Positions 2 to 63,753 are shown, counted from the stretch's first letter. The stretch: DNA of 64,000 bases from a virus (IMGVR_UViG_2974538492_000001:64001-128000); one strand, 5' to 3'. The notes: generated by a model from the letters alone, not told the origin. Translations and numbers: made by a program.

Positions 2-577
2 AAATCTGAAACTGGTACGGTATGGCTAAGTCCTGATAAAACTTCAGCATATCATATGTACCAATTTTGGGTTAATATTAGTGATGATGAAATGTACACA
101 ATGTATCAGTACTTTAAACCTATGTCATTGACATTAGATGAATTTAAACATGAAATGAGTATTAATGCAGTTGCTATGAAAAAAGAGTTTGCATATTTGA
201 TGACTTCGTTGATTCATGGTGTTGATAAAGCTGATCAAGCCCATAATATTAGTCAATTTATCTTTGGTGAAAAGGTAGTACTTGATAATGATACTATTGT
301 TATGATGCAGCAATCTGGAATGGGTCATCGCAGTATAATTACTGATTCTAATAATTTGGTATCTACTTTGGTTGAACTTGGTTTAGCTAAATCAAAAAAA
401 ATGGCACGTGAATTCATTACTAATGGTGCAGCCAAAGTAAATGGTCGTAAAATTAACGAATTTTTCAATCCAGCAACTAATGAATTTATCGAAGATGTTG
501 ATATGTTTGATATGAAATACTATGTTATACAATGCGGTAAAACCAATTTCTTTGTTGTAGAAAATAGGAGGATTTAA
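2..577 (+). CDS. tyrS: Tyrosyl-tRNA synthetase, C-terminal part (gene begins before the window)
   Basis: The frame from base 2 reads KSETGTVWLSPDKTSAYHMYQFW, matching the TyrRS KFGKT/S..AVWLD..KTSPY.FYQFW segment. C-terminal S4-like domain LVELGLAKSKKMAREFITNGAAKVNG. Confidence 0.9.
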   Translation, partial: KSETGTVWLSPDKTSAYHMYQFWVNISDDEMYTMYQYFKPMSLTLDEFKHEMSINAVAMKKEFAYLMTSLIHGVDKADQAHNISQFIFGEKVVLDNDTIVMMQQSGMGHRSIITDSNNLVSTLVELGLAKSKKMAREFITNGAAKVNGRKINEFFNPATNEFIEDVDMFDMKYYVIQCGKTNFFVVENRRI

Positions 578-579
578 TT

Positions 580-804
580 ATGTCACAAACATATACAGCA
601 GTTTTATATCGTCCTAATCATTCAGACTATTGTCGTGGTTGTTTAATGGGACAAACTGATTCTGATTTAAAAATTTTCACAGGTTCATCACAGCAAGATA
701 TTATTGATAAAATTATTCCAGTACTTGTTTAATCCAAGTTAGATTCTGAAAAAAATTTAGAACTTGCTGAATATGAACGTTTGAAATCAAAATTTGGTGA
801 ATAA
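580..804 (+). pseudogene. Small hypothetical gene interrupted by an in-frame TAA at 730-732
   Basis: RBS AGGAGG and ATG at 580, stop after 50 codons. The same frame continues to ELAEYERLKSKFGE and ends at TAA 802-804, abutting the next ATG. Confidence 0.5.
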
Positions 805-1053
805 ATGAAAATAGTTTTTGTAATAATGGCAGTCCTTATGCTATCATCATGCCGAGTTGACACCAACGATAAAAATATCCCTGTATTTTCAGGGATTATT
901 AAACAAGACCCACGTATTATCACTGCTGATTTAACAATGGAAAACAATAATTATCATTGTTTTAGTTTTGATGCAGAAAAAGACAATTTAATTTTTATGT
1001 GTAAGAAGGTTAATAATGAAGAAAATTCTTCTAGCGTTACTAGTACTAACTAG
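805..1053 (+). CDS. Putative lipoprotein, hypothetical
   Basis: Hydrophobic N-terminus ending in the lipobox-like LSSC. Confidence 0.55.
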   Translation: MKIVFVIMAVLMLSSCRVDTNDKNIPVFSGIIKQDPRIITADLTMENNNYHCFSFDAEKDNLIFMCKKVNNEENSSSVTSTN

Positions 1054-1204
1054 TACTGCCTGTACTAGCTTAGATAATGGTTCATATGAACAATATCGAC
1101 CATTTAGTGATAAAGCTGGTTATAATTGTGCAGTTGAAAGTTCAGACATATATCTCATTAATGGTGTACCATCTTTGAAATATATTTGTAATAAGGTAAA
1201 ATAA
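1016..1204 (+). CDS. Putative small lipoprotein, hypothetical
   Basis: MKKILLALLVLTSTAC signal peptide with lipobox-like cysteine. Confidence 0.55.
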   Translation: MKKILLALLVLTSTACTSLDNGSYEQYRPFSDKAGYNCAVESSDIYLINGVPSLKYICNKVK

Positions 1205-1734
1205 TGAAAATAACACGTTCATGGGCGATGCCAAATAAGAATACTTTTTTGATCAAGCCTATAAGGGATTTTATTGAACGCGAACTATCGAAAGTAGAGT
1301 TGATTGAAGATGCAGTATTTGTTGATGCTTTTGCTAATAACAGCATATTCAATCCACGAATGACATATACAAATGATTTAGACCCTGATATGCCAACAAC
1401 TCATCATATGGATGCATTGGAATTTCTTAAATCATTAGAATCTGAATCTGTAGATTTTCTACTATTTGACCCACCATATAGTCCAAGACAAGTTTCTGAA
1501 TGTTATAAAAGTTTAGAAATGACTGTTAACATGCAAACTACTCAATCAAGTTTTTGGGGCAATCTAAAGAAAGAGATTGCCAGAGTTATGAAAACTGGTG
1601 GAGTAGTAATGACATTTGGATGGAATAGTGGTGGTATTGGAAAATCGAATGGATTTGAAATAGATGAGATTTTATTTGTAGCACATGGAGGTTGGCATAC
1701 TGACACTTTTTGTGTCAAAGATATAAAAAAATAA
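1204..1734 (+). CDS. Short amino-type (probably N6-adenine) DNA methyltransferase-like protein
   Basis: Motif IV DFLLFDPPYS and possible motif I variant VDAFAN. Confidence 0.65.
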   Translation: MKITRSWAMPNKNTFLIKPIRDFIERELSKVELIEDAVFVDAFANNSIFNPRMTYTNDLDPDMPTTHHMDALEFLKSLESESVDFLLFDPPYSPRQVSECYKSLEMTVNMQTTQSSFWGNLKKEIARVMKTGGVVMTFGWNSGGIGKSNGFEIDEILFVAHGGWHTDTFCVKDIKK

Positions 1735-1773
1735 TATAAATATCCCTATAGAAGAAAAATATAGGGATATTTA
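1735..1773 (+). promoter_or_regulatory. T4-type late promoter TATAAATA (1735-1742) overlapping a 14-bp hairpin that sequesters the RBS of the downstream endonuclease
   Basis: TAAATATCCCTATA (1737-1750) pairs perfectly with TATAGGGATATTTA (1760-1773); ATG at 1776. Confidence 0.75.
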
Positions 1774-1775
1774 AG

Positions 1776-2708: not shown

Positions 2709-2714
2709 GAATTG

Positions 2715-2830
2715 AGAAATACAAAGCCGTGCCTCTGGCAAAATCCAGTATAAGTCCGTTTACGCTTTATCGCAAGTACTGAGAGAATATTCCTACTCGA
2801 TAATACCAACTCTTAGGGCGTTGTATTTCT
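2715..2830 (+). ncRNA. Candidate ~116-nt structured RNA element (multi-branch fold)
   Basis: Closing stem AGAAATACAA/TTGTATTTCT extended by GCC/GGGC; internal stems TGCC/GGCA, CAGTA/TACTG, AGAG/CTCT; intergenic and GC-richer than its flanks. Strand not established. Confidence 0.4.
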
Positions 2831-2857
2831 TTTAAGTTAACTAAAAAGAGACAAAAA

Positions 2858-3490: not shown

Positions 3491-3845
3491 ATTGGTTGGT
3501 ATATTGAATGATATGCCACGTAAAAATAAATCCAGTGTTTCACGTAAGCATTACACAATTATTGCGTGTGCACTAGATAAAAGAGGACGAGTACTGGCAA
3601 TGCGAACTAATGATTATAATTGTTCACATCCATTACAAAAGTACTATGCAGAGAAAGTTGGAAGACCTGAAGCCATTTTTCTACATGCAGAAGTAGCAAC
3701 ACTTATAGCAGCCCGTAAAGAAGTTTATAAATTGCTTATTGCAAGGGTCGATATGCAAGGTAATCCATTACCTGCTAAGCCATGTTCGATATGTGAAAAA
3801 GCAATTGCAGCATTTGGAGTAAAAGAAATTGAATATACCCAATGA
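3477..3845 (+). CDS. Cytidine/deoxycytidylate deaminase-like zinc protein
   Basis: HAE and PCSIC zinc-binding motifs. Confidence 0.7.
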   Translation: MKISKLVGILNDMPRKNKSSVSRKHYTIIACALDKRGRVLAMRTNDYNCSHPLQKYYAEKVGRPEAIFLHAEVATLIAARKEVYKLLIARVDMQGNPLPAKPCSICEKAIAAFGVKEIEYTQ

Positions 3846-22905: not shown

Positions 22906-23766
22906 ATGGAATACAATGGAAAATTTCCTCACCAAAAAATAGATTTCAACTCAAGTACAGTCATCGTTATAAATGGTGACTGTACTTCTGTATTAAAAGA
23001 GTTATACGAACTTGGATTTAAATTTAACACCACAATAACATCTCCACCATATGCAGAACAACGTAAAGACGTATACGATAGTATTACACCTACCGATTTT
23101 CCATTATGGTATAAAAATATCAGTACTGATATCATGAATGTTACACATGATGATGGTTCTTATTTCTTTAATATAAAAGAGCATGTTGATAAAGGTAAAC
23201 GTGATATTTACGTATACAAGACCATCATTGATATTTCTGATGATTATAATTGGAGTGATGAATATATTTGGAATAAAACAAATCCATTCCCTACTGGTGC
23301 TAAAACTCGATTGAAAGATGGATTTGAAAGAATATATCAATTTAACCATACAACAAAATATAAATTCTTTCCAGATGAAGTAAAAGTACAAAGTACTTCA
23401 AAGTACTTAGAAAGTGAAAAGAAAAGAAAAAACAAAGGTGAGCACAATGTCAATAATGGGTCTTCAATGAACATGACTAAACGTGTTGCTGAAGATATGG
23501 TTAGACCAAGTAATGTGATTACGTGTAGTACTAGTAATTTAAATATTGGTCATCCAGCAGTATTTCCTATTGATATACCAAACTTCTACATAAAGCTAAC
23601 AACTGAAGAAAATGATTGGATACTTGATCCATTTGGTGGTTCAGGGACAACTGCATTAAGTGCAATTCAATTAGGTAGAAATTGTGTTCTAATAGAAAAA
23701 TCTGAACAGTACTATCAATTAATAATCGAAAGACTAAATCAATTTGGTCGGGAGAATTATCTATGA
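22906..23766 (+). CDS. Beta-class DNA methyltransferase, probably N4-cytosine
   Basis: Motif IV ITSPPY near the N-terminus; HPAVFP and motif I ILDPFGGSGTT near the C-terminus. Confidence 0.88.
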   Translation: MEYNGKFPHQKIDFNSSTVIVINGDCTSVLKELYELGFKFNTTITSPPYAEQRKDVYDSITPTDFPLWYKNISTDIMNVTHDDGSYFFNIKEHVDKGKRDIYVYKTIIDISDDYNWSDEYIWNKTNPFPTGAKTRLKDGFERIYQFNHTTKYKFFPDEVKVQSTSKYLESEKKRKNKGEHNVNNGSSMNMTKRVAEDMVRPSNVITCSTSNLNIGHPAVFPIDIPNFYIKLTTEENDWILDPFGGSGTTALSAIQLGRNCVLIEKSEQYYQLIIERLNQFGRENYL

Positions 23767-27213: not shown

Positions 27214-27242
27214 AAAACCCACCAGATATGGTGGGTTTTTTT
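27214..27242 (+). terminator. Rho-independent terminator
   Basis: AAAACCCACCA-GATA-TGGTGGGTTTT plus Ts. Confidence 0.85.
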
Positions 27243-27284
27243 GTAAATATGATATTATACCCAATAAACATTGAGGTGAACATC

Positions 27285-27647
27285 ATGTTTAATTTTATTA
27301 AGTTATACAAATTACCAATAGTAATAGTAGCTTTTATACTGTATACAGTACTAATGTTATTTTCAGGTTGGCAAGTTAGAACATATTATGATGGTTATCA
27401 ACAAAACATCGTAGAAAAAGTTCAAAAAGTAGTAGATACTGGTGTAAGTACTATGCAACGAAATCAGGCTCAAGGTTTTGAAAATATAAAAGTAAATCTT
27501 AAAGAAGCCAATAACAAAACAATAATTAAAGAACCAACAATAGTTAATAGAATAATTTATGCACAACAATGTATAGATCAGGATGGTGTGGATCTTCTTC
27601 AGCAATATAAACAAGAATCCATTAATATCAGGGAAGGTAAAAAATGA
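27285..27647 (+). CDS. Putative inner-membrane spanin (Rz-like)
   Basis: Single N-terminal TM helix and periplasmic helical domain; ATGA overlap with a lipoprotein gene. Confidence 0.6.
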   Translation: MFNFIKLYKLPIVIVAFILYTVLMLFSGWQVRTYYDGYQQNIVEKVQKVVDTGVSTMQRNQAQGFENIKVNLKEANNKTIIKEPTIVNRIIYAQQCIDQDGVDLLQQYKQESINIREGKK

Positions 27648-27958
27648 GAATATTTAAATTATTTTTAATTGCGATATTCGTTACATTAATGTTAATGATA
27701 ACAGGTTGTAGTACTGTTCCTATTCAAAATAAGCCAATAATAGAACAGCAATCGTTATTACAAAAATGCACAACGGATACCCCAATTCCAACAAATTTTG
27801 TGCTTGACAGCAATGGTAACCAAGTATATAATGGTAAGGAAGTATTCAGAGTACTACGTGAATGGCAAACAGTTTATAATGATTGTGCAGCCCAGCACGA
27901 TGCTCTAGTAGATACTATACTGAAGTTAAATTCAATGAAAGAAGTTACTAAAAATTAA
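27644..27958 (+). CDS. Putative outer-membrane spanin (Rz1-like lipoprotein)
   Basis: Lipobox ITGC; C...P.P and Y.DCAAQHDALV segments. Confidence 0.6.
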   Translation: MRIFKLFLIAIFVTLMLMITGCSTVPIQNKPIIEQQSLLQKCTTDTPIPTNFVLDSNGNQVYNGKEVFRVLREWQTVYNDCAAQHDALVDTILKLNSMKEVTKN

Positions 27959-28550: not shown

Positions 28551-28958
28551 GTGAATGGAATAATTAAAATGTTAAAAGATTTGGAATTTTCAGGTTTAGA
28601 AATTATTAGTGCTACAAAAAATATCAATGATTATGGATCAGATAAAGATTTTATTATTGCAATTACTATGGTTAGTGATGAAGATTCATATTCACATTTA
28701 ACTGGAATTGAAAAATTAATTCACGAAACTAATTTACAAAATGATTCAAAATATATTAAATTAAGTTGTTCTTATCGAACAAACGAGAAGGGTCAAATTA
28801 TCCTTCCTATAAAAATTGCATATAATGGAAGTACTGAAAAGTACTCTAAACGTGCATATTATGAACGTGATTTAACCCCTGATTTGTTCGAAGATATTAC
28901 ATTTATTGATGAATTCTTTGAACGCACTCCTACTGAAATTAAACGTTTATACATGTGA
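28551..28958 (+). CDS. Hypothetical protein
   Basis: 135-aa ORF; start uncertain. Confidence 0.55.
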   Translation: MNGIIKMLKDLEFSGLEIISATKNINDYGSDKDFIIAITMVSDEDSYSHLTGIEKLIHETNLQNDSKYIKLSCSYRTNEKGQIILPIKIAYNGSTEKYSKRAYYERDLTPDLFEDITFIDEFFERTPTEIKRLYM

Positions 28959-40882: not shown

Positions 40883-40980
40883 GTCCAAAGCGACTTTGTG
40901 CAGATAAGGCGTTGGACACCCAAAATGTTTCCTTATTATGCATGAGTCGTACAAAATGTATATTAAGGAGGAATTTTGTA
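40883..40980 (+). promoter_or_regulatory. Structured 5' leader of the lysozyme gene
   Basis: GTCCAA/TTGGAC stem; loop 40891-909 complementary to 40931-949; TACAAAAT/ATTTTGTA hairpin covers the TTG start. Confidence 0.5.
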
Positions 40981-41911
40981 TAAAGCGATACAAGAACTCA
41001 AGACTCGTGCTGGACATATTAAATATGTTTTAGTAGGTTTTATGTTGCTTGCCGCTGCATTTGGATTTATTGGTTTTAACTCACATGATCGTACTACATC
41101 ATTAGTTTCGGAAGAAGCAGTAGTGCAACAATATGAACCACAAGTTACAATTCAAAAGCAACCGCCAGTTATTATTCAAATTGAAGAACCAACTGCAAGC
41201 AGAGAGCAATACAAAGTACTAAATGGTGATAGTTTATGGACTATCTCATCAAAGATTAAGCCACAAAATGTAGAACTTAACGACTATGTTACAGTACTTA
41301 AGAGGATTAATTCGGATGTAACCTTACATCCTGGTACAATGTTTGAAATCCCAACAGCAGATGATTTAAGGGATGTAGAACTTCCTGAAATTGAAGTAAA
41401 ATTCAATACACAGGACGATTTAATTATTACGCACCTTAAAAAATCTGAAGGAACAAGTGAATCCCAAGCTGTATTAAAGCGGCGTTTACTTGGCGGTAAA
41501 GTTGGACCATCTTTTAAAAATGGTAAATTCTATCCATACCGTGATAGTACTGGTCATTTTACGATTGGTTATGGTCATTATCTTGGAAAGAGTGATAGTG
41601 CTGCAATGAAGTACAAAAATGGCATCACTAAGCGTCAAGCTCACGATATGTTAATAATGGATATGGAAAGAACTATGGATGATTTCGTCCTGTTATTACA
41701 ACGTAAACGTGCAGTAGATTTAACTGTTGAGCAACAACGTATACTTTATGAAATGGCATATACTATGGGATGCGATAAATTAGCACGTTTTAATAAAATG
41801 TGGAAAAGTGTAGAACATAGTAATCCTCATAAATTCAAAAAAGAAATTAAAAGCTCACTATGGTATAGTCAGGTCGGAAATCGGGCTGAAATATTATTGA
41901 GTAGCATTTAA
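40976..41911 (+). CDS. Membrane-anchored LysM plus T4-like lysozyme (muramidase)
   Basis: N-terminal TM; LysM YKVLNGDSLWTIS; catalytic E..(insert)..Y.DSTG..TIGYGH; TTG start with AAGGAGG. Confidence 0.8.
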   Translation: MYKAIQELKTRAGHIKYVLVGFMLLAAAFGFIGFNSHDRTTSLVSEEAVVQQYEPQVTIQKQPPVIIQIEEPTASREQYKVLNGDSLWTISSKIKPQNVELNDYVTVLKRINSDVTLHPGTMFEIPTADDLRDVELPEIEVKFNTQDDLIITHLKKSEGTSESQAVLKRRLLGGKVGPSFKNGKFYPYRDSTGHFTIGYGHYLGKSDSAAMKYKNGITKRQAHDMLIMDMERTMDDFVLLLQRKRAVDLTVEQQRILYEMAYTMGCDKLARFNKMWKSVEHSNPHKFKKEIKSSLWYSQVGNRAEILLSSI

Positions 41912-48792: not shown

Positions 48793-51444
48793 ATGGCTGA
48801 TTTACTATCACCTGGTGTAAATGTAACAGTTACCGATGAAACTATTAGTTCTACTAGCGGTGCAGGAACTGTGCCTTTGTTTATCATTGCGACGGCACAA
48901 GATAAACTAGTTACAGGAAGTACTTCTGTTGCTGCGGGAACAACTAAAGCTAACGCAGGAAAACTACAACTAATTACATCGCAACGAAATGCTCTTGAAA
49001 TGTACGGATCACCAATATTTCAAAAAAGTAATGGATCTGTCGTTCAAGGCGATGAACTTAATGAATATGGCCTACACGCTGTATATAGCTACATGGGTAT
49101 TGCAAACCGTGCATATGTAGTTCGTGCTGATGTTGATATGGCACAACTAGAACCAACAGGAACTGAACCAACAGGACCAGTATCTAATGGTACTTTGTGG
49201 TTAGATACATCTGCCACACAAATTGAAGCATATGTCGCTAGAGTTAATAACCCAACCAGTTTCTTTGACTGGCAACTAAAACCTGTAACCATTGTCAGTT
49301 ATGAAGATATTGATGATGTTCCTACTAATACATTAAATGTAGATGATTTAGTACTACGTCATATTCCTAGTACTGGACAAATGCTAATGTATAAATTCGA
49401 AGCAATTGGTTTAGTTCAGGTTGAAACTTATCTATCACCAATTAACAAAGTCCCAACAGGATCAGCTATTATCAGAGGTAATATCTGGATTCGTGATGGT
49501 TACACTAAAAATGGTTCAAACTATTTTGGTACACGTTTTGTACTAAAACGTTTTGCTTCTCTAACTGCCGTTTGGAATGAAGTAAATGTTTGGACTGGTA
49601 ACAGTTTTTATGAAATTGAATCTAAATCTGGTACATTTGATAACACTTATTTCGGATCACTTTTTGATGAAGACAGTAAGAGTTTTTCATTATATACTAA
49701 AGCTGGAAATATTGCAGCAATTTCTGCACCAGCAACCCCTATTGGTCAATCTTCTAGCCAAGTAGCTACAAGTATTGGTAATTTAACAATTAAGTACTTA
49801 AACAAATCAGTAACAGTTGCCGCTGTATTACAATCTCAAATTATTAATACTGCAACATTAATTGCAAACCTTAATCAAAGTTCTGACTTAATTAATGCTG
49901 GGTTTACCTTTACTGGTACTAACGCATTGATTGTAACAAATAGAAATGGTTATAGTTTTGAAACTACTTCTACTGGTCAACAAATATTCAGTACTCCAGA
50001 ATTAGCGAAATTGACAGTTGATAGTAATAACTATTCATTGGTTAATGTTAATAACTTACGTGTTAGCTCAATAACACCAACAGCAAAAGCACCAAACGGT
50101 ACTTATTGGTATGATTTCAGTAATTCTGATTCATTAAAGGTTACTATGTATGTTGCTAATGTTAGTACTGAAGATTGGGATTTAATAATTGAATCTAATC
50201 AATATGTGCAATTAGATGAACCAGCAGCAGACCGTGATTTTTGGGCTAAGCCTTTATCACAAGGTGTTGAAGGATATGAATTCTATCGTAATGTAAGCGG
50301 TACTTGGGTTAAATTAGACTCAACAGATCAAAGTACTTTAAATGGTATGGTATTTGAAGATTTTAATTCAGGCGAAGTTCCTAGTGCAGCATTATATCAG
50401 AATGGTATGTTGGCAATTGATTTAGGTAATACTGAAGGTGTTGTTAAAGTCATGACTAATGGTATATGGGCTATCGCAAGTGGTGTAGCATTAAATGGTG
50501 CTGGATTATTTGGTCGTGCTGCTCAACGTCAAATCATAGTTGAGGCATTAGCTGCTGTTGTTATTGGAAATGAAGAAATTCGTGCTGAAAGTATTGATTA
50601 TAACTTAGTGTGTGTCCCTGGTTATGTTGAACTTTTAGATGAATTAGTAACACTTAACACAGATCGTAAAGAAACTGCATTTATCGTAACTGATGTTCCT
50701 GCACGTTTAGCACCAAATAGTACTGCGGTACAAGCATGGGCTTCTAATGCAAATAATGCTCCTAGTAATGGTGACATTGGTAGAACAACTGGTTACTCTT
50801 ATGCTGCTCAATACATGGGATGGTGCTTAAGTACTAACGTTGATGGTTCAGAAGTTGCTGTACCTGGTAGTACTATTGCAATGCGTACCTATGCTTACAG
50901 TGATAGCGTAAGTTATGTATGGTATCCACCTGCTGGTACACAACGTGGTGTTGTAACAAATGCTGCATCTGTTGGTTTCATTAATGGTGAAGGTGAATAT
51001 GCTCCAGTAGTATATAACCAAGGCCAACGTGATACAATGTATGTTAATAAAATCAACCCAATTGCAATGCGTCCTAATCGTGGATTATTAGTATATGGAG
51101 ATAAGACTTTAGCACCAGATGATGGTTCTGCATTAAGTCGTGTTAACGTTGCACGTTTAGTAGTTTATATTCGTCGTCAATTGGAAATTCTTGCTGAACC
51201 ATTCTTATTCCGCTTGAATACTCCAAGTACTCGCCAAGAATTCACATCTGTAGTTAATAATTTCTTAGCTGAAATTGTTCAATTAAATGGATTATATGAT
51301 TTCTTAGTAGTATGTGATGAATCAAATAACACTACTACACGTATTGGTAGAAATGAATTGTGGATGGATATTGCACTTGTACCAACTCGTTCAATCAACT
51401 TCATCTATATTCCAATCCGTTTGGAAAATAGTTTAACACAATAA
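48793..51444 (+). CDS. Contractile tail sheath protein (gp18-like) with a large central insertion
   Basis: LLSPGVNVTVTD; VWYPPAG..RG; RD.MY...INPI; GDKT; SR.NVARL...I; FLVVCDESNNT; PTRSINFIYI. Confidence 0.93.
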   Translation: MADLLSPGVNVTVTDETISSTSGAGTVPLFIIATAQDKLVTGSTSVAAGTTKANAGKLQLITSQRNALEMYGSPIFQKSNGSVVQGDELNEYGLHAVYSYMGIANRAYVVRADVDMAQLEPTGTEPTGPVSNGTLWLDTSATQIEAYVARVNNPTSFFDWQLKPVTIVSYEDIDDVPTNTLNVDDLVLRHIPSTGQMLMYKFEAIGLVQVETYLSPINKVPTGSAIIRGNIWIRDGYTKNGSNYFGTRFVLKRFASLTAVWNEVNVWTGNSFYEIESKSGTFDNTYFGSLFDEDSKSFSLYTKAGNIAAISAPATPIGQSSSQVATSIGNLTIKYLNKSVTVAAVLQSQIINTATLIANLNQSSDLINAGFTFTGTNALIVTNRNGYSFETTSTGQQIFSTPELAKLTVDSNNYSLVNVNNLRVSSITPTAKAPNGTYWYDFSNSDSLKVTMYVANVSTEDWDLIIESNQYVQLDEPAADRDFWAKPLSQGVEGYEFYRNVSGTWVKLDSTDQSTLNGMVFEDFNSGEVPSAALYQNGMLAIDLGNTEGVVKVMTNGIWAIASGVALNGAGLFGRAAQRQIIVEALAAVVIGNEEIRAESIDYNLVCVPGYVELLDELVTLNTDRKETAFIVTDVPARLAPNSTAVQAWASNANNAPSNGDIGRTTGYSYAAQYMGWCLSTNVDGSEVAVPGSTIAMRTYAYSDSVSYVWYPPAGTQRGVVTNAASVGFINGEGEYAPVVYNQGQRDTMYVNKINPIAMRPNRGLLVYGDKTLAPDDGSALSRVNVARLVVYIRRQLEILAEPFLFRLNTPSTRQEFTSVVNNFLAEIVQLNGLYDFLVVCDESNNTTTRIGRNELWMDIALVPTRSINFIYIPIRLENSLTQ

Positions 51445-51449
51445 ACACT

Positions 51450-51475
51450 AAGGGAGCCTAATGGCTCCCTTTTTT
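51450..51475 (+). terminator. Rho-independent terminator
   Basis: AAGGGAGCC-TAAT-GGCTCCCTT plus Ts. Confidence 0.9.
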
Positions 51476-51524
51476 ATTTTATTTTTTTAATAGCTAAATA
51501 ATGAAAACAACATTGGAGAATAAA

Positions 51525-51929
51525 ATGGGTTTATTAGATAAGTATGGTATTGAATTAAAATCAATGGAAGAAATTGTAGAACCTCAAGTATCATATCGAT
51601 TTATATGTATGGTATCTAATTTAGATATTAGTTTATATGTAAATAAAATTGATATTAAGTTTATTAATGGAAAAACACATATTACAATTGTTCTTCGAGA
51701 AATAGATAAAGATTCTAATTTTAATAAGATTTTAAAATATTCTAAAAATACCAAAGGTGAAGTTATAACAATACAAATGTTAGATAAAAATAATGAACTT
51801 TCAAATGAATGTATTATTAATAATTTTAAAATAACAGAAATTTCTCTGACAGATTTAGACTATAGTAAAGCTACGTCTGTATCTGTATCATTTACCTGTG
51901 TTGGAGATTATCATAATATTACTGAGTAA
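51525..51929 (+). CDS. Short tail-tube-like paralog
   Basis: N-terminus MGLLDKYGI resembles the next two genes; QVSYRF and DLDYS...V.VSF segments; CTAAATA upstream. Confidence 0.5.
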   Translation: MGLLDKYGIELKSMEEIVEPQVSYRFICMVSNLDISLYVNKIDIKFINGKTHITIVLREIDKDSNFNKILKYSKNTKGEVITIQMLDKNNELSNECIINNFKITEISLTDLDYSKATSVSVSFTCVGDYHNITE

Positions 51930-51981
51930 ACTTTATAAATACATTAAAGATTATTCCTTAAATTATTAGGAGAAGATAATA

Positions 51982-52671
51982 ATGGCAAATTTACTGGATA
52001 AATATGGTGTTCCAATTCCAGGTGGTAGTCGTGCTCCAATGAAGCAACCAAAGCCTAAGTACCGCTACCGAATTCTATTTTTCGGTTTTGGTAATGCTGA
52101 TGATGGTAACTACATTGCGTTAGACACTAACACTGTGGGTGCACCTCATGTAGAACATGAAAACGTAACTGTTCACAGTTACAACAGTAGTGCTCACTAT
52201 AAAGGCAAATACACATGGAGTCCTATTGAAGTTGCATTTCGTGACTCGGTAGGTAACATGTCATTAAAAGCCCTTTATAACCAAATGCGTAAAGAATTCA
52301 ACTACTATTCACAAGAATCACGTATTACTGGTTCTCAATATAAGTTCGAAATGTGGATTCAAACACTTGATGGTTCTAATAGTGAAGATACTACTAACCT
52401 ATATCAAGGGACTCTTACAACTTGGATCTGTCAAGGTTGTTTCATCACAGAAAGTAATTTCGGTGATTGGGACTACTCAAGTTCAGAACCACAAGTTATT
52501 ACCATGACATTACAGCCAGATGGATGTGTGTTAGTTGGTCCAGAAGGTCAAGCTCTTGGTGATGAAGTTACTGGTAACGGTACTCCTGAAAACTCTGTGG
52601 CTATTACCTCTAGTCCAACAGCAGTTAATGCGGATACATTACCTGATACAAACTTCTACAAAGGACAGTAA
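51982..52671 (+). CDS. Tail tube protein (gp19-like)
   Basis: PKPKYRYR, YKGKYTWSPIEVAFRD, W.CQGCF.....GDWDYSSSEP..ITMTL; TATAAATA at 51934. Confidence 0.8.
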   Translation: MANLLDKYGVPIPGGSRAPMKQPKPKYRYRILFFGFGNADDGNYIALDTNTVGAPHVEHENVTVHSYNSSAHYKGKYTWSPIEVAFRDSVGNMSLKALYNQMRKEFNYYSQESRITGSQYKFEMWIQTLDGSNSEDTTNLYQGTLTTWICQGCFITESNFGDWDYSSSEPQVITMTLQPDGCVLVGPEGQALGDEVTGNGTPENSVAITSSPTAVNADTLPDTNFYKGQ

Positions 52672-52680
52672 CAATATCCT

Positions 52681-52708
52681 AAAAGCCCTGACTATTCAGG
52701 GCTTTTTT
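52681..52708 (+). terminator. Rho-independent terminator
   Basis: AAAAGCCCTGA-CTAT-TCAGGGCTTTT. Confidence 0.9.
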
Positions 52709-52757
52709 ATTGCTAAATAATAATATAAATTCCAAATTTAAATAGGGGAAAGTATAA

Positions 52758-53531
52758 ATGGCAAATATGATGGATAAGTATGGTGTTCCTCTACCAAGTG
52801 GTCGCAATAAAACCATGAGCCAACCAAAAATTAAACATAAGTTCAGAGTTGTTGTATCAAACTTTGGTACTGCGATTGATGAAAAAGATTTTGTTGCATT
52901 GGAAGTATCTGAAGTAGATCGTCCTGGTATTTCGTTCGAAACTCATCAACTATATCAATTTGCTACAAATACTTCTTATGTTGGTCGTTGGGATTGGAAA
53001 CCAATCACACTTACAATACGTGATGCAGTTGATAATAAAGTAGCTAAATCTATTATTCGTCAACTACAAAAACAATTAGATTTCCAGCGTAGAATCTCTG
53101 CGAAATCAGAACAAGAATTTGCGGGATATAAATTCCGTATGATGATTGAAACTACTGGCGGGGCAAACCCTGATGATTCACTAACTAACCTAATACGTGA
53201 TACCGCTGTTGATTCAGCTACTGCTATTACTAATAATGAAGGTTTAGTTAATGCAATAGATGATTTTGTCGGCGGGAATGGTTTCAACGCATTAAGTACT
53301 TTAGATCGATGGGTATGTTATGGATGTATAATAACTGACATTGAATGGGATTCATTAGATTATGGGTCATCTCAGTACTTAACTATTAAGTTAACTATTA
53401 AACCTGATAATTGTGTACAGTACGATATGATTGAAGAAATGTATTCTGATAGAATAAGTTCATTACTTCCAGATAATGTTGATAATGCATTAGATATTGT
53501 AGACAGAATATTTGGTTCAGCGAGAATTTAA
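52758..53531 (+). CDS. Second tail tube protein paralog (gp19-like)
   Basis: PKIKHKFR, YVGRWDWKPITLTIRD, W.CYGC.......LDYGSS....IKLTIKPD. Confidence 0.75.
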   Translation: MANMMDKYGVPLPSGRNKTMSQPKIKHKFRVVVSNFGTAIDEKDFVALEVSEVDRPGISFETHQLYQFATNTSYVGRWDWKPITLTIRDAVDNKVAKSIIRQLQKQLDFQRRISAKSEQEFAGYKFRMMIETTGGANPDDSLTNLIRDTAVDSATAITNNEGLVNAIDDFVGGNGFNALSTLDRWVCYGCIITDIEWDSLDYGSSQYLTIKLTIKPDNCVQYDMIEEMYSDRISSLLPDNVDNALDIVDRIFGSARI

Positions 53532-59553: not shown

Positions 59554-59928
59554 ATGATACCAAAAACCAACAGTACTGAAATTCAAGTAGATGTATTAAT
59601 AAAAATACGGGAAGTTTATGAATTTGATTCTGAACTTTCTGATAGAATGATATTGATATCTATTTTTGATAATTACAGAACTGGTGGTGGTCTTAGGTTG
59701 AGTAAGTTGGGGTATAATATTTGTACTGAATATGATTTGTATGAGTTTACCCCTATTCCTATAAAAAAGGAAGACCGTAATTCTATGGTTTACACTTCTT
59801 TAGATCGTATTTGCACTAGCCCCTATTATATAAAAGGGGATGTTTTGTACTTATCTGATGAACTTGTTATGGCACAACTAACTTTTTGTAGAGATAATTT
59901 TGTAAAATTATTTTTAGCATTTATGTGA
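59554..59928 (+). CDS. Hypothetical protein
   Basis: ATG 59554 follows the previous stop; GGLRLSKLGY motif. Confidence 0.6.
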   Translation: MIPKTNSTEIQVDVLIKIREVYEFDSELSDRMILISIFDNYRTGGGLRLSKLGYNICTEYDLYEFTPIPIKKEDRNSMVYTSLDRICTSPYYIKGDVLYLSDELVMAQLTFCRDNFVKLFLAFM

Positions 59929-59954
59929 AACATTAAAAAAAATTCTGGTATAAT
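59925..59954 (+). promoter_or_regulatory. Promoter GTGAAA-18-TATAAT with TGG extension
   Basis: Nearly identical to the element at 29233 (GAAACA..TTAAAAAAA..TGGTATAAT). Confidence 0.65.
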
Positions 59955-60074
59955 ATGTTTATTAAGACAGATTAAGGATTAACTTAAAGGCACTGATGTG
60001 AATCAGTGCCTTCTCTTTTGACAAATGGATTTGTAAATTTTATTACAGTAAACAACAACAAAGGTAGAAGACGT

Positions 60075-61406
60075 ATGAGCGAAAACATTAAAACTGATAG
60101 TCTAAATTATAACTTAAAACCATCTCAAGTTTTTGAAGCAATGCAAGTTGCAGATATAGTTGGTGATAGTTTAATGATTTGGGGTTCTCCTGGTATTGGT
60201 AAATCTGCAATTGCCCGTCAATATGCGAAAGAAATGTATCCATTGTATAAAGACAACGTTGGTCAGTTAGAATTTTTGCTACAACGTGCACAAAATGAAG
60301 ATGATACGTTAGTTACTATGAATGATTATTTGGATTTTAAAAATTCATTACTAGATCAAGAAACCAATTTTATTGATTTTCGTTTATCACAGATTGAGCC
60401 ATCGGATCTTCGTGGTATTCCAATTCCAGTAAAAATGTATTATGATTTAGCAGGAAATCAGATTCTAGAATCTGAATTAGATAAACATCCAATTTATCAA
60501 ACTGATACTTCAGTTGTATGGGCTGCTCCAGATATTCTTAAATTGAATCCTAGCTGGAAAGGTGTAATCTTATTTGATGAAATTAACTCTGCAATGCCAA
60601 TTGTTCAAGCTGCTTCATATCAGTTAATTTTAGACCGTTGTGTCGGAGAACTAATACTTCCATCAACTGCATTGATTCTTGCAGCAGGAAACCGTGAAAC
60701 TGATGGTGGTGTAACATTTAGTTTAGCAACTCCATTGCGTGACCGAATGACTCACGTAGAAATGATTCCAGACTATATGGATTGGATTGAAAATTATGCA
60801 ATTCCTAATCGGCTAAATGCTGGTACTATTGCTTATATTAAAGAAACTGGTTCTAAAAACTTTAATACATTAAGCCCTAAAGATACTAGTCATTCTGGCG
60901 GTTCTTCACCACGTTCATGGACTCGTGTATCAGAAATCGAAACAGTACGTAAACAATTAGGTACTTCTTCTCAAGTTTACAAAGCATTAATTGCTGGTCG
61001 AGTTGGTAATATAGCTGCAATTGATTATGTAACTTATATTGAAAATATGGCAGGTCTTCCAGATGTAATGGATATTATGAATGGATTAGTAACTGATTTT
61101 AGTGAACATGTTGAAGAAATATCAAAAAATTATTTCATTGTATTAAATTTAGTATATAAAATTATTGAATTTTTCAGTAAAAAAGTTGAAGGTTCTATTA
61201 CATTAGAACAATGGCGTTCTTATTGTACAAATTTCTTAACGTTTATCGATACTAATTTTGCTTCAACACAAACTGAATTAATTGTTCATGCAGTTCGAAC
61301 TTTCACTGACGCAAATGTTAATATTTCATATGCAGAAGTTCCAGTGTTTAAATCGTTTGTTACCAAATATGGTCCATTACTACGTAAGTGCCGAACAATA
61401 AAATAA
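60075..61406 (+). CDS. MoxR-like AAA+ ATPase
   Basis: Walker A GSPGIGKS, DLRGIP, Walker B LFDEINSA, AGNR, PRSW. The ORF track starts it at 60006. Confidence 0.88.
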   Translation: MSENIKTDSLNYNLKPSQVFEAMQVADIVGDSLMIWGSPGIGKSAIARQYAKEMYPLYKDNVGQLEFLLQRAQNEDDTLVTMNDYLDFKNSLLDQETNFIDFRLSQIEPSDLRGIPIPVKMYYDLAGNQILESELDKHPIYQTDTSVVWAAPDILKLNPSWKGVILFDEINSAMPIVQAASYQLILDRCVGELILPSTALILAAGNRETDGGVTFSLATPLRDRMTHVEMIPDYMDWIENYAIPNRLNAGTIAYIKETGSKNFNTLSPKDTSHSGGSSPRSWTRVSEIETVRKQLGTSSQVYKALIAGRVGNIAAIDYVTYIENMAGLPDVMDIMNGLVTDFSEHVEEISKNYFIVLNLVYKIIEFFSKKVEGSITLEQWRSYCTNFLTFIDTNFASTQTELIVHAVRTFTDANVNISYAEVPVFKSFVTKYGPLLRKCRTIK

Positions 61407-61413
61407 TTATAAT

Positions 61414-61437
61414 AAGGGACATTTTATATGTCCCTTT
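61414..61437 (+). terminator. Hairpin/terminator-like element between MoxR and VWA genes
   Basis: AAGGGACAT-TTTAT-ATGTCCCTT with a short T-run. Confidence 0.5.
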
Positions 61438-61455
61438 AATTGTATGAGAGGTTAT

Positions 61456-62772
61456 ATGAATACACCATATGTTGTATCAAAAGAATATGCTGATGAATGT
61501 CATGATAGAATTATAGTTGCTCGAACTTCAATGATAATGGGATGTCCATTTTTTGGAATACTTGCAGCTAGATTAAAATTAGTACCAAATAATACATGGT
61601 GCCGTACTTTAGCGGTTGATGGAAAACATTTATATTATAATGTTGAATTTATCATGGGTATTGAAGATCCATTACGCCGACAAGAATATGAAGATAAACT
61701 TAAAACTACAATTGATGATTTAACTACCGAACAAATTAAAGATGCATTGGATGGATTGAGTCATCAGAATTTAGTTGCAGCTATATGTCATGAAATTCTT
61801 CATTGTGCATATAATCATTTTTTACGCCGTGGATCTCGTAATCCAAAAAAATGGAATAAAGCTGCTGATTATGCAATTAATCAAATTATCAATCGCGATA
61901 AGAAAATGGGATTAATTAAAAAATCATGGCTATATAATTCTGATTATGAAGGTAAAGCTGCGGAAGAAATTTATAATATTTTAGAAGAACTAGGTGATAG
62001 TGATGGTGGCGGTGGTGGCACATTAGACCAACACGATATTCCACAACAGGACTCTAATGATAATGAAGATGAATCTGTTCCAAAATTTACTAAAGATGAA
62101 TTAGAATCATTTATGGATTCTTTTAAAGATGCAATGTTAAGTGCAGCTTTAGCCGATGGTGCACCTAAAGAAATTCGAGATATGATTGAAGAGTTTAAAA
62201 CTCCAACAATTGATTGGCGTTCAAAATTAAACAGAACTATCAGATCTTTGATTAAAAATGACGTATCATATATGATGCCAAGTCGTAGATCATGGAGCAC
62301 CGGATTTGGGAGTACTGGATCATATTATGGTTCTCCTATATATCCAGGATTAAAACCAGATTTAGATATTGATATATGCGTAGCATTAGATGCATCTGGT
62401 AGTATCAGTACTGAAATGTTAAAAGACTTCTTATCTGAAGTTATTGGGATGACTAAACAATTTAGTCAATTCAAAATTAGAATTCTTACTTTTGATACTT
62501 CTGTTTATACTGTACGAGATTATGTAACTGGAGAAGAAAAGAAGATTCTAGAATATCCAGTTGTCGGCGGTGGCGGCACGTTGTTTACTGCGGTATATGA
62601 TTATATGAAAAATGATAATTATTGTCCTAAGCAATTAGTTATGTTTACTGATGGTGAACCGTGGGGTTCTTGGGGAGATAGTAATTATTGTGAAACCTTA
62701 TTTGTAATTCATTCTAATCCAAAAAAAGAAGCCCCTTTCGGCACTACTGTGCATTATAATATTGGTGAATAA
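61456..62772 (+). CDS. DUF2201-type metallopeptidase-like plus vWA domain protein
   Basis: HEILH zincin motif, WNKAADYAIN, LDASGSIS MIDAS, GGGGT.F, FTDG. Confidence 0.88.
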   Translation: MNTPYVVSKEYADECHDRIIVARTSMIMGCPFFGILAARLKLVPNNTWCRTLAVDGKHLYYNVEFIMGIEDPLRRQEYEDKLKTTIDDLTTEQIKDALDGLSHQNLVAAICHEILHCAYNHFLRRGSRNPKKWNKAADYAINQIINRDKKMGLIKKSWLYNSDYEGKAAEEIYNILEELGDSDGGGGGTLDQHDIPQQDSNDNEDESVPKFTKDELESFMDSFKDAMLSAALADGAPKEIRDMIEEFKTPTIDWRSKLNRTIRSLIKNDVSYMMPSRRSWSTGFGSTGSYYGSPIYPGLKPDLDIDICVALDASGSISTEMLKDFLSEVIGMTKQFSQFKIRILTFDTSVYTVRDYVTGEEKKILEYPVVGGGGTLFTAVYDYMKNDNYCPKQLVMFTDGEPWGSWGDSNYCETLFVIHSNPKKEAPFGTTVHYNIGE

Positions 62773-62814
62773 CTATAATAAATAAAAGGTCACCATTATG
62801 GTGGCCTTATTCTT

Positions 62815-62844
62815 TTGGAACAGGCCATAATTTTATGGTATAAT
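62815..62844 (+). promoter_or_regulatory. Promoter TTGGAA-18-TATAAT with TGG extension, directly after a terminator-like hairpin (62785-62816)
   Basis: Second promoter class. Confidence 0.6.
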
Positions 62845-62878
62845 ATATATAATTAAAAAATACATGGAGTGTATAATT

Positions 62879-63109
62879 ATGAGTAATGAAGTTGAATTTA
62901 ACAGTGATGTTGTTGGCCCACAATTAGAATTCATTGATATTATCAATGCTACAAAAATCATGGAAGCCGCGATTGAACGTAAGGCATTTTCAATTAAAGA
63001 ATTAGGAGAAGTTGCCCCTATTGTAGCACGTTTCCAAGATTTTTCACAAGCAATTCTTGAAGAACAATCTAATTCTCCTGAGATTAAATCAGAAGGAGTT
63101 GCAGAATGA
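62879..63109 (+). CDS. Small hypothetical protein
   Basis: ATG after GGAG; AAIERKAFSIKELGEV. Confidence 0.6.
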   Translation: MSNEVEFNSDVVGPQLEFIDIINATKIMEAAIERKAFSIKELGEVAPIVARFQDFSQAILEEQSNSPEIKSEGVAE

Positions 63110-63753
63110 GTATTATTAGACATTGTGGAGTAGTTCGCAGTACTGGATCTCGTGTGTTTGTTGTTTGGCGTCAACTTGAGAATGATTCACGCCATTGTTT
63201 AGTGATTTATCGTGATTCATTACCAGAAGCTTATGTAACTAAAGTATCTGATTTAGTACTTAATCAAGGACAAAGCTCAATTGAACTTTGGGATGTTATT
63301 GATAAAATTGGTACACTTGAAGGTGCTAATATGTTAACCGTTTTACATAAAATGGGTTATATTCGTAAGCAAAGTACTTTAGATATTGATATGCATGTTG
63401 GTGGTAATAATAAAATTCCTTTGAATATTTTAAATGATGAAATTAATTCTGCACCAGAAATGGTTGCTGGAACTGTAAAAGATTTCAATCCATTTAAATC
63501 TCAAAATGTTCAATATCCAGAACAAAATACAGTAGTAACTCATCTATTAGATGATGCAAATAAGTATCAGCAATTAGCTAATGAAAGCTTTGAGCGTGCT
63601 TATAATTTAGATCCAAGTTTACGTCCTCAATCAGTTACTGGTGAAAATAAAGATGATGATTTAATTCATCTAAACATCGATCCTTCAATGTCACAAGCTA
63701 AAGCAATTGAGTTAGTTAAAAAGGCATTAAAGGAACATAAAGATGCAAAATAA
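63106..63753 (+). CDS. Hypothetical protein
   Basis: ATGA overlap; RBS AAGGAG. Confidence 0.7.
   Translation: MSIIRHCGVVRSTGSRVFVVWRQLENDSRHCLVIYRDSLPEAYVTKVSDLVLNQGQSSIELWDVIDKIGTLEGANMLTVLHKMGYIRKQSTLDIDMHVGGNNKIPLNILNDEINSAPEMVAGTVKDFNPFKSQNVQYPEQNTVVTHLLDDANKYQQLANESFERAYNLDPSLRPQSVTGENKDDDLIHLNIDPSMSQAKAIELVKKALKEHKDAK

What the first reader, a model, noticed from the sequence alone, without database searches (positions are those of the whole stretch)
277..63378. AGTACT is a highly iterated palindrome across this phage genome (about 6-7 times the expected count)
Seen: a line-by-line manual count gave about 150 AGTACT hexamers (about 1 per 420 bp). Base composition at ~30% GC predicts roughly 20-25. 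They fall in all three codon phases (S-T as AGT ACT, V-L as GTA CTn, K/E/Q-Y as nnA/G TAC), so amino-acid usage cannot explain them. I noticed the same-composition palindrome AGATCT only a handful of times (not an exhaustive count). Known: phages usually deplete 6-bp palindromes to avoid restriction. Strong enrichment instead recalls cyanobacterial HIP1, which is associated with DNA methyltransferases, and chromosome-organising motifs. Inference: the phage writes a genome-wide DNA mark or binding site, possibly for self/non-self discrimination during host DNA degradation, methyl-directed repair or recombination, or packaging/condensation. I know of no description of this for such phages, but I could not search.
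Basis: partly seen in the sequence, partly recalled or inferred. Interest (0 to 1): 0.9.

Follow-up and report, generated by a model that had tools for sequence, protein, structure and literature searches.

The report
Hyper-abundant AGTACT word in jumbo phage
This giant enterobacterial phage carries the six-letter palindrome AGTACT about eight times more often than chance or protein coding allows, the DNA there is apparently not chemically marked, and two unrelated prophage types share the excess, so an unidentified factor probably reads it.

Summary
The window has 155 AGTACT sites, against 13.9±3.3 in dinucleotide shuffles. The whole 354-kb genome has 1008 against 119 expected, which makes AGTACT its most over-represented hexamer.

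The excess survives shuffles that keep every protein and the codon usage (904 against 210). It holds in all three codon phases and is denser still between genes. It also bends protein sequence: Ser-Thr dipeptides are 1.54 times expected.

- The SPPY methyltransferase in the window is missing from equally AGTACT-rich relatives.
- A published nanopore study of two relatives with 1114 and 1313 sites found GATC, CCWGG and TGCAT modified, not AGTACT.

Repair drive, SlmA binding and flank preference were tested and rejected.

This scan has reported the same word before in more than 40 other genomes. New here:
- Two unrelated prophage types in Enterobacteriaceae chromosomes share the excess (7.7- to 13-fold) and the near-absence of GCGC.
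- The only detectable homologues they share with the jumbo phage are lysis genes.
- Ten other enterobacterial phages, E. coli K-12 and four jumbo relatives listed on non-enteric hosts are AGTACT-poor.

Most likely AGTACT is a selected, unmodified binding word. Its reader is still unknown.

The parts
108..63378 (.). 155 dispersed copies of the palindrome AGTACT (about 1 per 413 bp), in genes in all three codon phases and in intergenic DNA
   Evidence: positions, shuffles. (phases 79/15/52; 146 against 32.4 under synonymous shuffle). (near-Poisson spacing, CV 0.90-0.94). (flat along genes; every gene of at least 1.5 kb has at least 2 sites).
1042..1057 (.). Pair of AGTACT sites 10 bp apart (AGTACT-N4-AGTACT, self-complementary). 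Similar pairs lie at 23392-23407 and 28830-28845.
   Evidence: Genome-wide, a 10-bp spacing occurs 6 times against about 2.9 expected per distance. This is a weak excess and its function is not shown.
22906..23766 (+). Beta-class (TSPPY) N4/N6 DNA methyltransferase. Tested as a candidate writer of AGTACT and rejected; more likely the enzyme behind the TGCAT modification seen in Kaldavass.
   Evidence: PF01555, 1.1e-35. (M.PvuII, 1.2e-16). (found in only part of the AGTACT-rich clade). (counts in relatives). (PMC11780129).
27228..27958 (+). Two lysis genes. The first is the counterpart of the gene annotated 'Rz-like spanin' in Serratia phage BF; the second follows it. Both are among the few genes with homologues in the AGTACT-rich prophages.
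   Evidence: 33-45% identity to ORFs of the G258 and G270 islands. (BF annotation).
40976..41911 (+). Lysozyme gene whose catalytic domain is shared with the AGTACT-rich prophages of type A
   Evidence: (BF gp185, lysozyme).
59578..62310 (.). Longest AGTACT-free stretch of the genome (2739 bp between sites). The second longest is window 51232-53294.
   Evidence: The length is about what a Poisson process of this density gives (expected maximum about 2.56 kb), so it is not an exception that needs explaining.

Best explanation
AGTACT is an unmodified, positively selected DNA word. I read it as a dense, genome-wide set of binding sites (about 1 per 350 bp, against 1 per 11.6 kb in E. coli K-12) for a sequence-specific DNA-binding factor, probably a symmetric dimer, that has not been identified.

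It works through density, not position. Sites turn over between relatives while the density is held.

In the early region of this phage the same word is built into sigma-70-type promoters at two fixed places 20-21 bp apart. One copy abuts the -35 hexamer and the other lies one base upstream of the -10 hexamer. The factor could therefore also modulate early transcription.

Three unrelated phage lineages of Enterobacteriaceae carry the excess but share no detectable DNA-binding protein. I therefore lean slightly (about 55:45) to a reader supplied by the infected cell over one specific to each phage lineage.

Shown: the excess, its independence of coding, its distribution, its turnover, the promoter placement, the convergence and the phyletic mismatch with the methyltransferase. 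From a paper: no AGTACT modification reported in two relatives. Inferred: that a protein reads the word, its symmetry and its origin.
For: 1. Selection acts on the DNA.
- Coding sequence has 904 sites against 209.9 under shuffles that keep proteins and codon usage, in all three phases.
- Of 783 Ser-Thr dipeptides, 462 are coded AGT-ACT against 119 expected.
- Ser-Thr is 1.54 times expected while Thr-Ser is 1.01; Val-Leu is 1.30 while Leu-Val is 0.97.
- Intergenic density (105 sites in 26.5 kb) is higher than coding density.

2. Uniform, density-like distribution.
- Spacing is near-Poisson, the profile along genes is flat, and every long gene carries sites.
- Against Serratia phage BF (83% DNA identity), 59% of sites are conserved compared with 39% of all hexamers. 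Both genomes keep about 1000 sites.

3. Promoter placement. At least 6 early promoters have AGTACT abutting the -35 hexamer and a second copy 20-21 bp downstream, just before TATAAT.

4. Not a chemical mark.

5. Not a repair artefact. None of the 18 one-mismatch neighbours is clearly depleted (ratios 0.55-1.38).

6. Clade-wide. BF has 1072 sites, Kaldavass 1114, Hallingskeid 1313, EJP2 1312, Munch 850, GAP32 1011 and XaC1 1356, against 130-200 of the reversed control.

7. Convergence.
- Four AT-rich islands with sharp borders in Enterobacteriaceae chromosomes are 7.7- to 13-fold enriched. The excess is again in all codon phases and beyond synonymous shuffles (78/20, 107/28, 129/30, 54/19).
- Their chromosomal flanks hold 1 site in 26 kb.
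- They are two unrelated prophage types.
- They share only lysis genes with the jumbo phage.

8. Contrast.
- P2, Mu, lambda, T4, P1, T5, FelixO1, N4, rV5 and Midgardsormr38 all have fewer AGTACT than the control word.
- So do E. coli K-12 and the jumbo relatives PA5oct, Atu_ph07, RsoM2USA and XacN1, which are listed on non-enteric hosts.
Against: - No reader is identified. Searches of the genome found no ParB and no HU/IHF. The one TetR-like hit is an HNH homing endonuclease.
- The apparent symmetric flank preference (C before, G after; G before and C after avoided) is mostly background. The same bias is seen around AGTAA, AGTAG, TTACT and similar words, so it does not support a dimeric reader.
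- The prophages do not show the promoter arrangement. There AGTACT pairs sit in hairpin stems instead.
- XaC1 and XbC2 are recorded on Xanthomonas yet are AGTACT-rich, which sits badly with a reader specific to Enterobacterales.
- Ten other enterobacterial phages do without the word.
- The nanopore evidence comes from relatives, not this phage, and its power for N4-methylcytosine was not checked.
- My gene calls are a crude longest-ORF set.
Confidence: 0.42

Rival explanations
1. The reader is encoded by the jumbo phage. It uses AGTACT density (perhaps together with the absence of GCGC and other words) to tell its own DNA from the host chromosome during host shut-off or DNA degradation. The unrelated prophages have converged on the same 'dialect' to be treated as self when such a phage infects their host.
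For: - The density contrast with E. coli K-12 is about 33-fold.
- The prophages copy the whole dialect, not just AGTACT: GCGC is 0-5 against 36-58 expected in three of four, GTAC is 2.5-3 times expected, TGCA is raised and many 6-bp palindromes are absent.
- They share lysis genes with the jumbo phage at 33-45% identity, which is evidence of past gene exchange between these lineages.
- The excess follows the Rak2-like clade, including XaC1, which is recorded on Xanthomonas.
Against: - No candidate protein was found.
- No host-DNA nuclease was tied to these words.
- GCGC is not purged in the fourth island (19 against 35 expected).
- Mimicry is pure inference.
- An earlier check of this scan priced the self/non-self reading at 10-20%.
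Confidence: 0.18
2. There is no reader. The excess is the equilibrium of a mutational, repair or gene-conversion bias, or a side effect of purging many other words in an AT-rich genome.
For: - Site turnover is high (41% of aligned sites differ from BF) and mostly involves C5-T or G2-A changes.
- The genome is under heavy word avoidance: GCGC is 0, and TAAATA, TATTTA and A/T runs are strongly depleted.
- The order-4 Markov ratio is only 1.18.
Against: - No neighbour word is drained.
- The excess is specific to one of 64 palindromic hexamers and is 4.3-fold beyond codon-preserving shuffles.
- It changes amino-acid order.
- Prophages presumably copied by the host replication machinery while integrated keep it, while their flanks have 1 site in 26 kb.
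- Other AT-rich enterobacterial phages (T4, T5, FelixO1) lack it.
Confidence: 0.12
3. The phage methylates AGTACT, for example with the SPPY methyltransferase at 22906-23766. The methylated word is the functional mark, as proposed for HIP1 and its methyltransferases.
For: - An orphan beta-class N4/N6 methyltransferase lies in the window and itself carries five sites.
- M.ScaI-type enzymes are N4-cytosine methylases (my own knowledge, not checked here).
Against: - The enzyme is absent from Hallingskeid, EJP2 and Munch, which have 1313, 1312 and 850 sites.
- The prophages have no homologue.
- Nanopore data on Kaldavass and Hallingskeid list GATC, CCWGG and TGCAT only.
- The extra Kaldavass motif TGCAT fits this enzyme as well or better, since Hallingskeid has neither the homologue nor the motif.
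Confidence: 0.04
4. The sites recruit the host nucleoid-occlusion factor SlmA, whose binding site GTGAGTACTCAC has AGTACT at its core, to block cell division over phage DNA.
For: - The core of the published SlmA site is AGTACT (PMC3020112).
- The four prophage-bearing genomes encode SlmA at 86-94% identity to E. coli's.
Against: - SlmA needs G1, T2, A4 and G5.
- The genome has 0 full sites, even with the relaxed consensus.
- Half-sites are fewer than expected: 10 against 31 and 17 against 24.
Confidence: 0.03
5. The word matters physically or at the RNA level. It could be a flexible GTAC/TA step that eases bending or packaging of the DNA, or an AGUACU signal in the transcripts.
For: - The distribution is uniform and independent of position.
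- Almost all genes are on one strand, so the RNA carries the word too.
Against: - Physical flexibility does not explain hexamer specificity: AGTACT has 1008 copies and TGTACA 148.
- An RNA signal need not be a palindrome, and it does not explain the higher density between genes.
- Phages with small capsids share the excess.
Confidence: 0.07

Closest known systems
HIP1 (GCGATCGC), the highly iterated palindrome of cyanobacteria
   Same: A short palindrome many times over-represented genome-wide, in all reading frames, kept by selection on the DNA, with function still unknown.
   Different: - It has a different word and occurs in different organisms (phages of Enterobacteriaceae, not cellular chromosomes).
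- HIP1 is linked to cognate methyltransferases. Here the candidate methyltransferase does not track the word, and no modification was reported.
- The bacteria checked (E. coli K-12 and the prophage flanks) are depleted in the word, not enriched.
Chi (GCTGGTGG) read by RecBCD, and Chi-rich phages
   Same: A host-read word whose density on DNA changes how the cell treats that DNA. This phage also carries Chi: 13 forward copies against 0.9 expected, six of them in the first 13 kb.
   Different: Chi is asymmetric, depends on orientation and is frequent in the host chromosome. AGTACT is a palindrome, is rare in the host and is far denser (1 per 350 bp).
SlmA-binding sites (GTGAGTACTCAC) of E. coli (PMC3020112)
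   Same: The central six bases are AGTACT. Both are dispersed chromosomal sites read by a dimeric helix-turn-helix protein.
   Different: The phage sites lack the G1 and T2 positions that SlmA requires. There are 0 full sites, and half-sites are under-represented.
Bacillus phage SPO1 TF1, and T4 Alc
   Same: Phage systems that treat phage DNA differently from host DNA genome-wide. TF1 also binds at early promoters and shuts them off.
   Different: Those systems read a modified base (hmU, hmC). Here the distinguishing feature would be a plain sequence word. No HU-type protein was found in this genome.

Membership tests
HIP-type highly iterated palindrome | A palindromic word over-represented several-fold genome-wide, beyond codon and amino-acid usage | tested here: met
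   1008 against 119 expected. Coding sequence has 904 against 210 under synonymous shuffles, in all phases.
HIP-type highly iterated palindrome | Co-occurrence with a cognate DNA methyltransferase that modifies the word | tested here: not met
   The methyltransferase is absent from equally rich relatives and from the prophages. No AGTACT modification was reported in two relatives.
Methylation mark of a restriction-modification or orphan methyltransferase (ScaI-type) | The word is chemically modified in virion DNA | not testable with these tools
   Only published data on the relatives Kaldavass and Hallingskeid are available. They report GATC, CCWGG and TGCAT, not AGTACT (PMC11780129).
SlmA-binding sites | G1, T2, A4 and G5 of GTGAGTACTCAC on each half-site | tested here: not met
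   0 full or relaxed sites. Half-sites are 10 against 30.8 expected and 17 against 23.6.
Word driven by very-short-patch-type mismatch repair | Depletion of the one-mismatch precursor word or words | tested here: not met
   All 18 neighbours have observed/expected ratios of 0.55-1.38. AGTATT is 0.89 and AATACT 1.01.
Chi-like recombination or nuclease-control word | An asymmetric word, oriented with respect to DNA ends or replication, and abundant in the host | tested here: not met
   AGTACT is a palindrome and is depleted in E. coli K-12 (400 against 1147 for the control). True Chi is separately enriched in the phage.
Sigma-70 early-promoter element | A fixed position relative to the -35 and -10 hexamers | tested here: met
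   AGTACT lies at -5 from the -35 hexamer and 15-16 bp after its start in at least 6 promoters, within genome positions 4-10.2 kb. This covers only a few dozen of the 1008 sites.

The most novel reading that the evidence does not exclude
AGTACT density is a sequence-encoded identity tag for phage DNA that needs no base modification. A still-unknown factor of the infected cell (a host protein or a jumbo-phage protein) reads it to treat AGTACT-dense DNA differently from the AGTACT-poor chromosome. At least two unrelated temperate phage types of Enterobacteriaceae have converged on, or mimic, the same tag and the same GCGC-free dialect.
Probability: 0.22. Interest if true: 0.9.

Novelty: new variant of a known kind. 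Interest (0 to 1): 0.72.

Why it matters
Phages are expected to lose short palindromes, and this genome has indeed lost most of them. Yet one palindrome is its commonest hexamer, at a cost to protein sequence.

The same signature appears in three unrelated phage lineages of one bacterial family. It is missing from the bacteria checked, from ten other enterobacterial phages and from the four jumbo relatives tested that are listed on non-enteric hosts. That pattern points to an unrecognised DNA-reading activity in infected enterobacterial cells.

If a reader exists, it would be a way of telling phage from host DNA by plain sequence, without base modification. It could be tested directly with well-studied E. 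coli jumbo phages such as 121Q and PBECO4.

Practically, the word is a simple marker for finding these prophages: a three-site pattern scan located islands with sharp borders.

Tried and rejected
- **Methyltransferase as writer.** Rejected on its distribution among relatives and on the published nanopore data. Looking at neighbours of distant homologues to infer its specificity led nowhere: they are orphan genes in mobile elements with no recognisable endonuclease nearby.
- **Repair drive.** No neighbour word is depleted.
- **SlmA.** The sites lack the required flanks.
- **Symmetric flank preference as a sign of a dimeric reader.** I first read it that way, then found the same bias around unrelated words and withdrew it.
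- **Candidate readers in the genome.** No ParB and no HU/IHF. The TetR-like hit is an HNH homing endonuclease.
- **The 20-bp AGTACT iteron array near the right end.** It might have been a conserved centromere- or origin-like site, but it is absent from five relatives.
- **Pattern scan of IMG/VR for other AGTACT-rich viruses.** Most strong hits were coding tandem repeats or fragments of Rak2-like phages, so it was not informative.
- **P2, Mu, lambda, P1 and T4 as the 'small temperate family' of earlier notes.** All are AGTACT-poor.
- **DNA-level matches of the prophage islands to known phages or E. coli genomes.** None of use.
- **A reader protein shared by the jumbo phage and the prophages.** Searched with blastp and phmmer; only lysis genes are shared.
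- **Literature.** No paper describing the excess was found.

Full report
**What the window is**

The window is bases 64001-128000 of a single 354,378-bp phage contig with 31.6% G+C. Its tail sheath is 94% identical to those of Serratia phage BF and the Erwinia pEa_SNUABM phages. It is 85% identical to those of CBB and GAP32, 72-74% to 121Q-type and Munch-type phages, and 66% to RaK2. So this is a Rak2-like jumbo myovirus of the Eneladusvirus type. Nearly all genes lie on the + strand.

**Checking the observation**

AGTACT occurs 155 times in the window, against 13.9±3.3 in dinucleotide shuffles and 21.2 from base composition. AGATCT occurs 4 times.

Genome-wide there are 1008 sites against 119 expected, and AGTACT is the most over-represented hexamer. 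Every 10-kb bin carries 11-64 sites, with the highest density in the first 20 kb.

I called genes crudely, as a greedy set of longest ORFs: 546 genes covering 92.5% of the genome. Coding DNA holds 904 sites. Shuffling synonymous codons within each gene keeps every protein and the codon usage, and that codon usage is itself already inflated by the word. The shuffle still gives only 209.9 (z about 53). Permuting codons gives 122.

The excess holds in each phase: 462 against 133, 117 against 17 and 325 against 59. For the window alone it is 146 against 32.4±4.9.

Of 783 Ser-Thr dipeptides, 462 are written AGT-ACT, against 119 expected from codon usage. Ser-Thr itself is 1.54 times expected while Thr-Ser is 1.01. 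Val-Leu is 1.30 and Leu-Val 0.97. The word therefore bends protein sequence.

Intergenic DNA is denser still, with 105 sites in 26.5 kb.

Genome-wide, order 3 expects 394 and order 4 expects 853. The order-4 ratio of 1.18 does not refute the finding, because 71-73% of all AGTAC and GTACT pentamers lie inside AGTACT. In the NGTACN table AGTACT has 1008 copies and the runner-up 218. The hexamer is the unit.

The excess is not a host bias either. E. coli K-12 has 400 AGTACT against 1147 of the reversed control word.

**Anatomy of the sites**

Spacing is close to a Poisson process (CV 0.90-0.94; longest gap 2739 bp against about 2556 expected). There is an excess at 20-21 bp. Density is flat along genes, dips only at ribosome-binding sites and stop codons, and every gene of at least 1.5 kb has at least two sites.

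The aligned part of Serratia phage BF is 83% identical in DNA. There, 59% of AGTACT sites are conserved, against 39% of all hexamers (61 of 103). Yet BF keeps 1072 sites overall. Positions turn over while density is held. Differences are mostly C5-T or G2-A.

The 20-21-bp excess comes partly from early promoters in the first 13 kb of the genome. There AGTACT abuts the -35 hexamer (AGTAC-TTGACA type), and a second copy ends one base before TATAAT. Earlier notes of this scan reported the same arrangement for E. coli relatives.

**Is it a written mark?**

The window encodes a beta-class TSPPY methyltransferase at 22906-23766 (PF01555; nearest solved relative M.PvuII). A sister note from the first stage proposed it as the writer.

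Its close homologues occur only in the BF group, CBB, GAP32, XbC2 and Kaldavass. Hallingskeid, EJP2 and Munch lack it, yet carry 1313, 1312 and 850 sites, against 149-200 of the control.

A 2025 paper compared native and amplified DNA of Kaldavass and Hallingskeid by nanopore. It reports GATC and CCWGG in both and TGCAT in Kaldavass only. It reports neither an AGTACT motif nor nicks for these two phages (PMC11780129). With more than 1100 sites each, AGTACT should have been the easiest motif to detect, although I could not check the method's power for N4-methylcytosine.

The enzyme and the TGCAT motif are both present in Kaldavass and both absent from Hallingskeid. TGCA is also 1.7 times over-represented here. 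The enzyme is therefore more likely the TGCAT methylase. The 'written mark' reading is not supported.

**Is it a repair or mutation artefact?**

None of the 18 one-mismatch neighbours is clearly depleted under the codon-preserving null (0.55-1.38), so no specific precursor is being converted.

The prophages described below are presumably copied by the host replication machinery while integrated, yet they keep the word while their flanks have almost none. That argues for selection over polymerase bias.

**Known readers**

SlmA binds GTGAGTACTCAC and needs G1, T2, A4 and G5 (PMC3020112). The phage has no full site, and half-sites are fewer than expected.

I first took the flank pattern (C before and G after favoured; G before and C after avoided) as the footprint of a dimeric reader, or as avoidance of SlmA. 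The same bias surrounds AGTAA, AGTAG, TTACT and similar words, so I withdrew that argument.

The genome has no ParB and no HU/IHF. Its one TetR-like hit is an HNH homing endonuclease in the tRNA region.

**Distribution among phages**

All Rak2-like genomes tested are rich in the word. The jumbo relatives listed on non-enteric hosts are poor. Against the control word the counts are PA5oct 15 to 40, Atu_ph07 25 to 82, RsoM2USA 62 to 176 and XacN1 0 to 127.

Ten other enterobacterial phages all have fewer AGTACT than the control: P2, Mu, lambda, T4, P1, T5, FelixO1, N4, rV5 and Midgardsormr38. AT-richness alone is therefore not the cause.

One awkward point remains. XaC1 (1356 sites) and XbC2 are recorded on Xanthomonas vesicatoria but sit inside the enterobacterial clade.

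**Convergence in prophages**

Earlier notes of this scan mention an unrelated temperate family but give no identity. I looked for it independently. A three-site pattern was scanned over 401 genomes of the GTDB family that contains a Shigella flexneri genome.

Besides tandem repeats, the scan found AT-rich islands (36-41% G+C) with sharp borders in four genomes:
- G316: 90 sites in 34.5 kb, 7.8-fold.
- G258: 126 sites in 35.6 kb, 10.6-fold.
- G270: 141 sites in 34.5 kb, 13-fold.
- G117: 62 sites in 25 kb, 7.7-fold.

The 26 kb of flanking chromosome holds one site. In each island the excess is in all three phases and well beyond synonymous shuffles (78/20, 107/28, 129/30, 54/19).

The islands show the same dialect as the jumbo phage. 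GCGC is 0-5 against 36-58 expected in three of four. GTAC is 2.5-3 times expected, TGCA is raised in three of four, and many 6-bp palindromes are absent in two of them.

They are prophages of two unrelated types:
- **Type A (G258, G316, G117).** It has a lambda-gpA-type terminase and a serine recombinase, and the three share about 40-50% protein identity.
- **Type B (G270).** It has a split T7-like RNA polymerase, an endonuclease I-like gene, podovirus-type ejection proteins and a serine integrase.

By blastp and phmmer, the only robust homologues between either type and the jumbo phage are lysis genes. These are two lysis genes at window 27228-27958 (the first is annotated as an Rz-like spanin in BF) and a lysozyme domain at 40976-41911, at 33-45% identity.

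Their SlmA proteins are 86-94% identical to E. coli's, which suggests several genera.

In the prophages AGTACT pairs often form hairpin stems, not the promoter arrangement seen in the jumbo phage.

**Reading**

The data fit a positively selected, unmodified DNA word whose value lies in its density. The simplest mechanism is a sequence-specific binding factor.

Because three lineages share the word but no DNA-binding protein that I can detect, I lean slightly to a factor of the host cell. A jumbo-phage factor that the prophages have adapted to is a serious alternative. A no-reader explanation keeps about one chance in eight.

That remains the open question after many reports of this scan on other genomes.

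**Limits**

- Gene calls are crude.
- Modification evidence is from relatives, not from this phage.
- Prophage status rests on integrase, terminase, portal and tail genes and on composition borders.
- The HIP1 and Chi-rich-phage papers are cited from earlier notes and were not re-read.

Noticed in passing
G000:C1:2620-12750 (outside the window, early region): The host Chi octamer GCTGGTGG occurs 13 times on the + strand (0.9 expected) and 5 times on the - strand (0.44 expected). Six of the + copies cluster in the first 13 kb, some inside promoter spacers. This may protect the leading end against RecBCD.
   Followed up: partly
G000:C1:353537-353706 (outside the window): About nine tandem 20-bp units, each with AGTACT followed by a TATAAT-like hexamer, lie in a non-coding stretch near the right end of the record. 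Three sites at exact 20-bp spacing were not found in BF, Kaldavass, Hallingskeid, EJP2 or Munch.
   Followed up: partly
whole genome; window 1-64000: GCGC is completely absent (0 against 217 expected genome-wide). CTGCAG, CAGCTG, CCATGG, GGATCC, GGTACC and CGTACG are also at zero. TGCA is 1.7 times and GTAC 2.3 times over-represented.
   Followed up: partly
whole genome, coding DNA: TAAATA (121 against 342) and TATTTA (86 against 311) are the most depleted hexamers under the codon-preserving null, and TATAAATA occurs 21 times against 72 expected. This looks like avoidance of stray T4-type late promoters on both strands.
   Followed up: no
window 22906-23766: The TSPPY beta-class methyltransferase is probably the enzyme behind the unassigned TGCAT modification reported in Erwinia phage Kaldavass. 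The homologue and the motif are both present in Kaldavass and both absent from Hallingskeid.
   Followed up: partly
G000:C1:309315-309821 (locus L018:1438-1944): An HNH homing-endonuclease-like gene with an N-terminal helix-turn-helix lies among tRNA genes, inside one of the longer AGTACT-free gaps (308977-310489). That is what one would expect of a recent arrival.
   Followed up: no
L245:10595-12382 and L245:12766-13662 (G270 prophage): A temperate, serine-integrase prophage of an Enterobacteriaceae genome encodes a T7-like single-subunit RNA polymerase split into two ORFs, plus an endonuclease I-like gene. No near match was found among deposited phages or E. coli genomes.
   Followed up: partly
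L243:14505-15284 (G258 prophage): A SMODS (CBASS-type nucleotide synthase) gene sits as cargo inside the AGTACT-rich type A prophage.
   Followed up: no
AP018399.1 (Xanthomonas phage XacN1, 384,670 bp): AGTACT is completely absent (0 against 127 of the reversed control word), the opposite extreme to the Rak2-like clade.
   Followed up: no
G143:C2:10823-19965; G312:C6:129085-142587; G368:C1:1055753-1063996; G290:C189:3268-3324: A conserved element of about 57 bp with three AGTACT copies recurs in four Enterobacteriaceae genomes. In three of them it occurs as an inverted pair 8-13 kb apart, like the ends of a transposon or integrative element.
   Followed up: no
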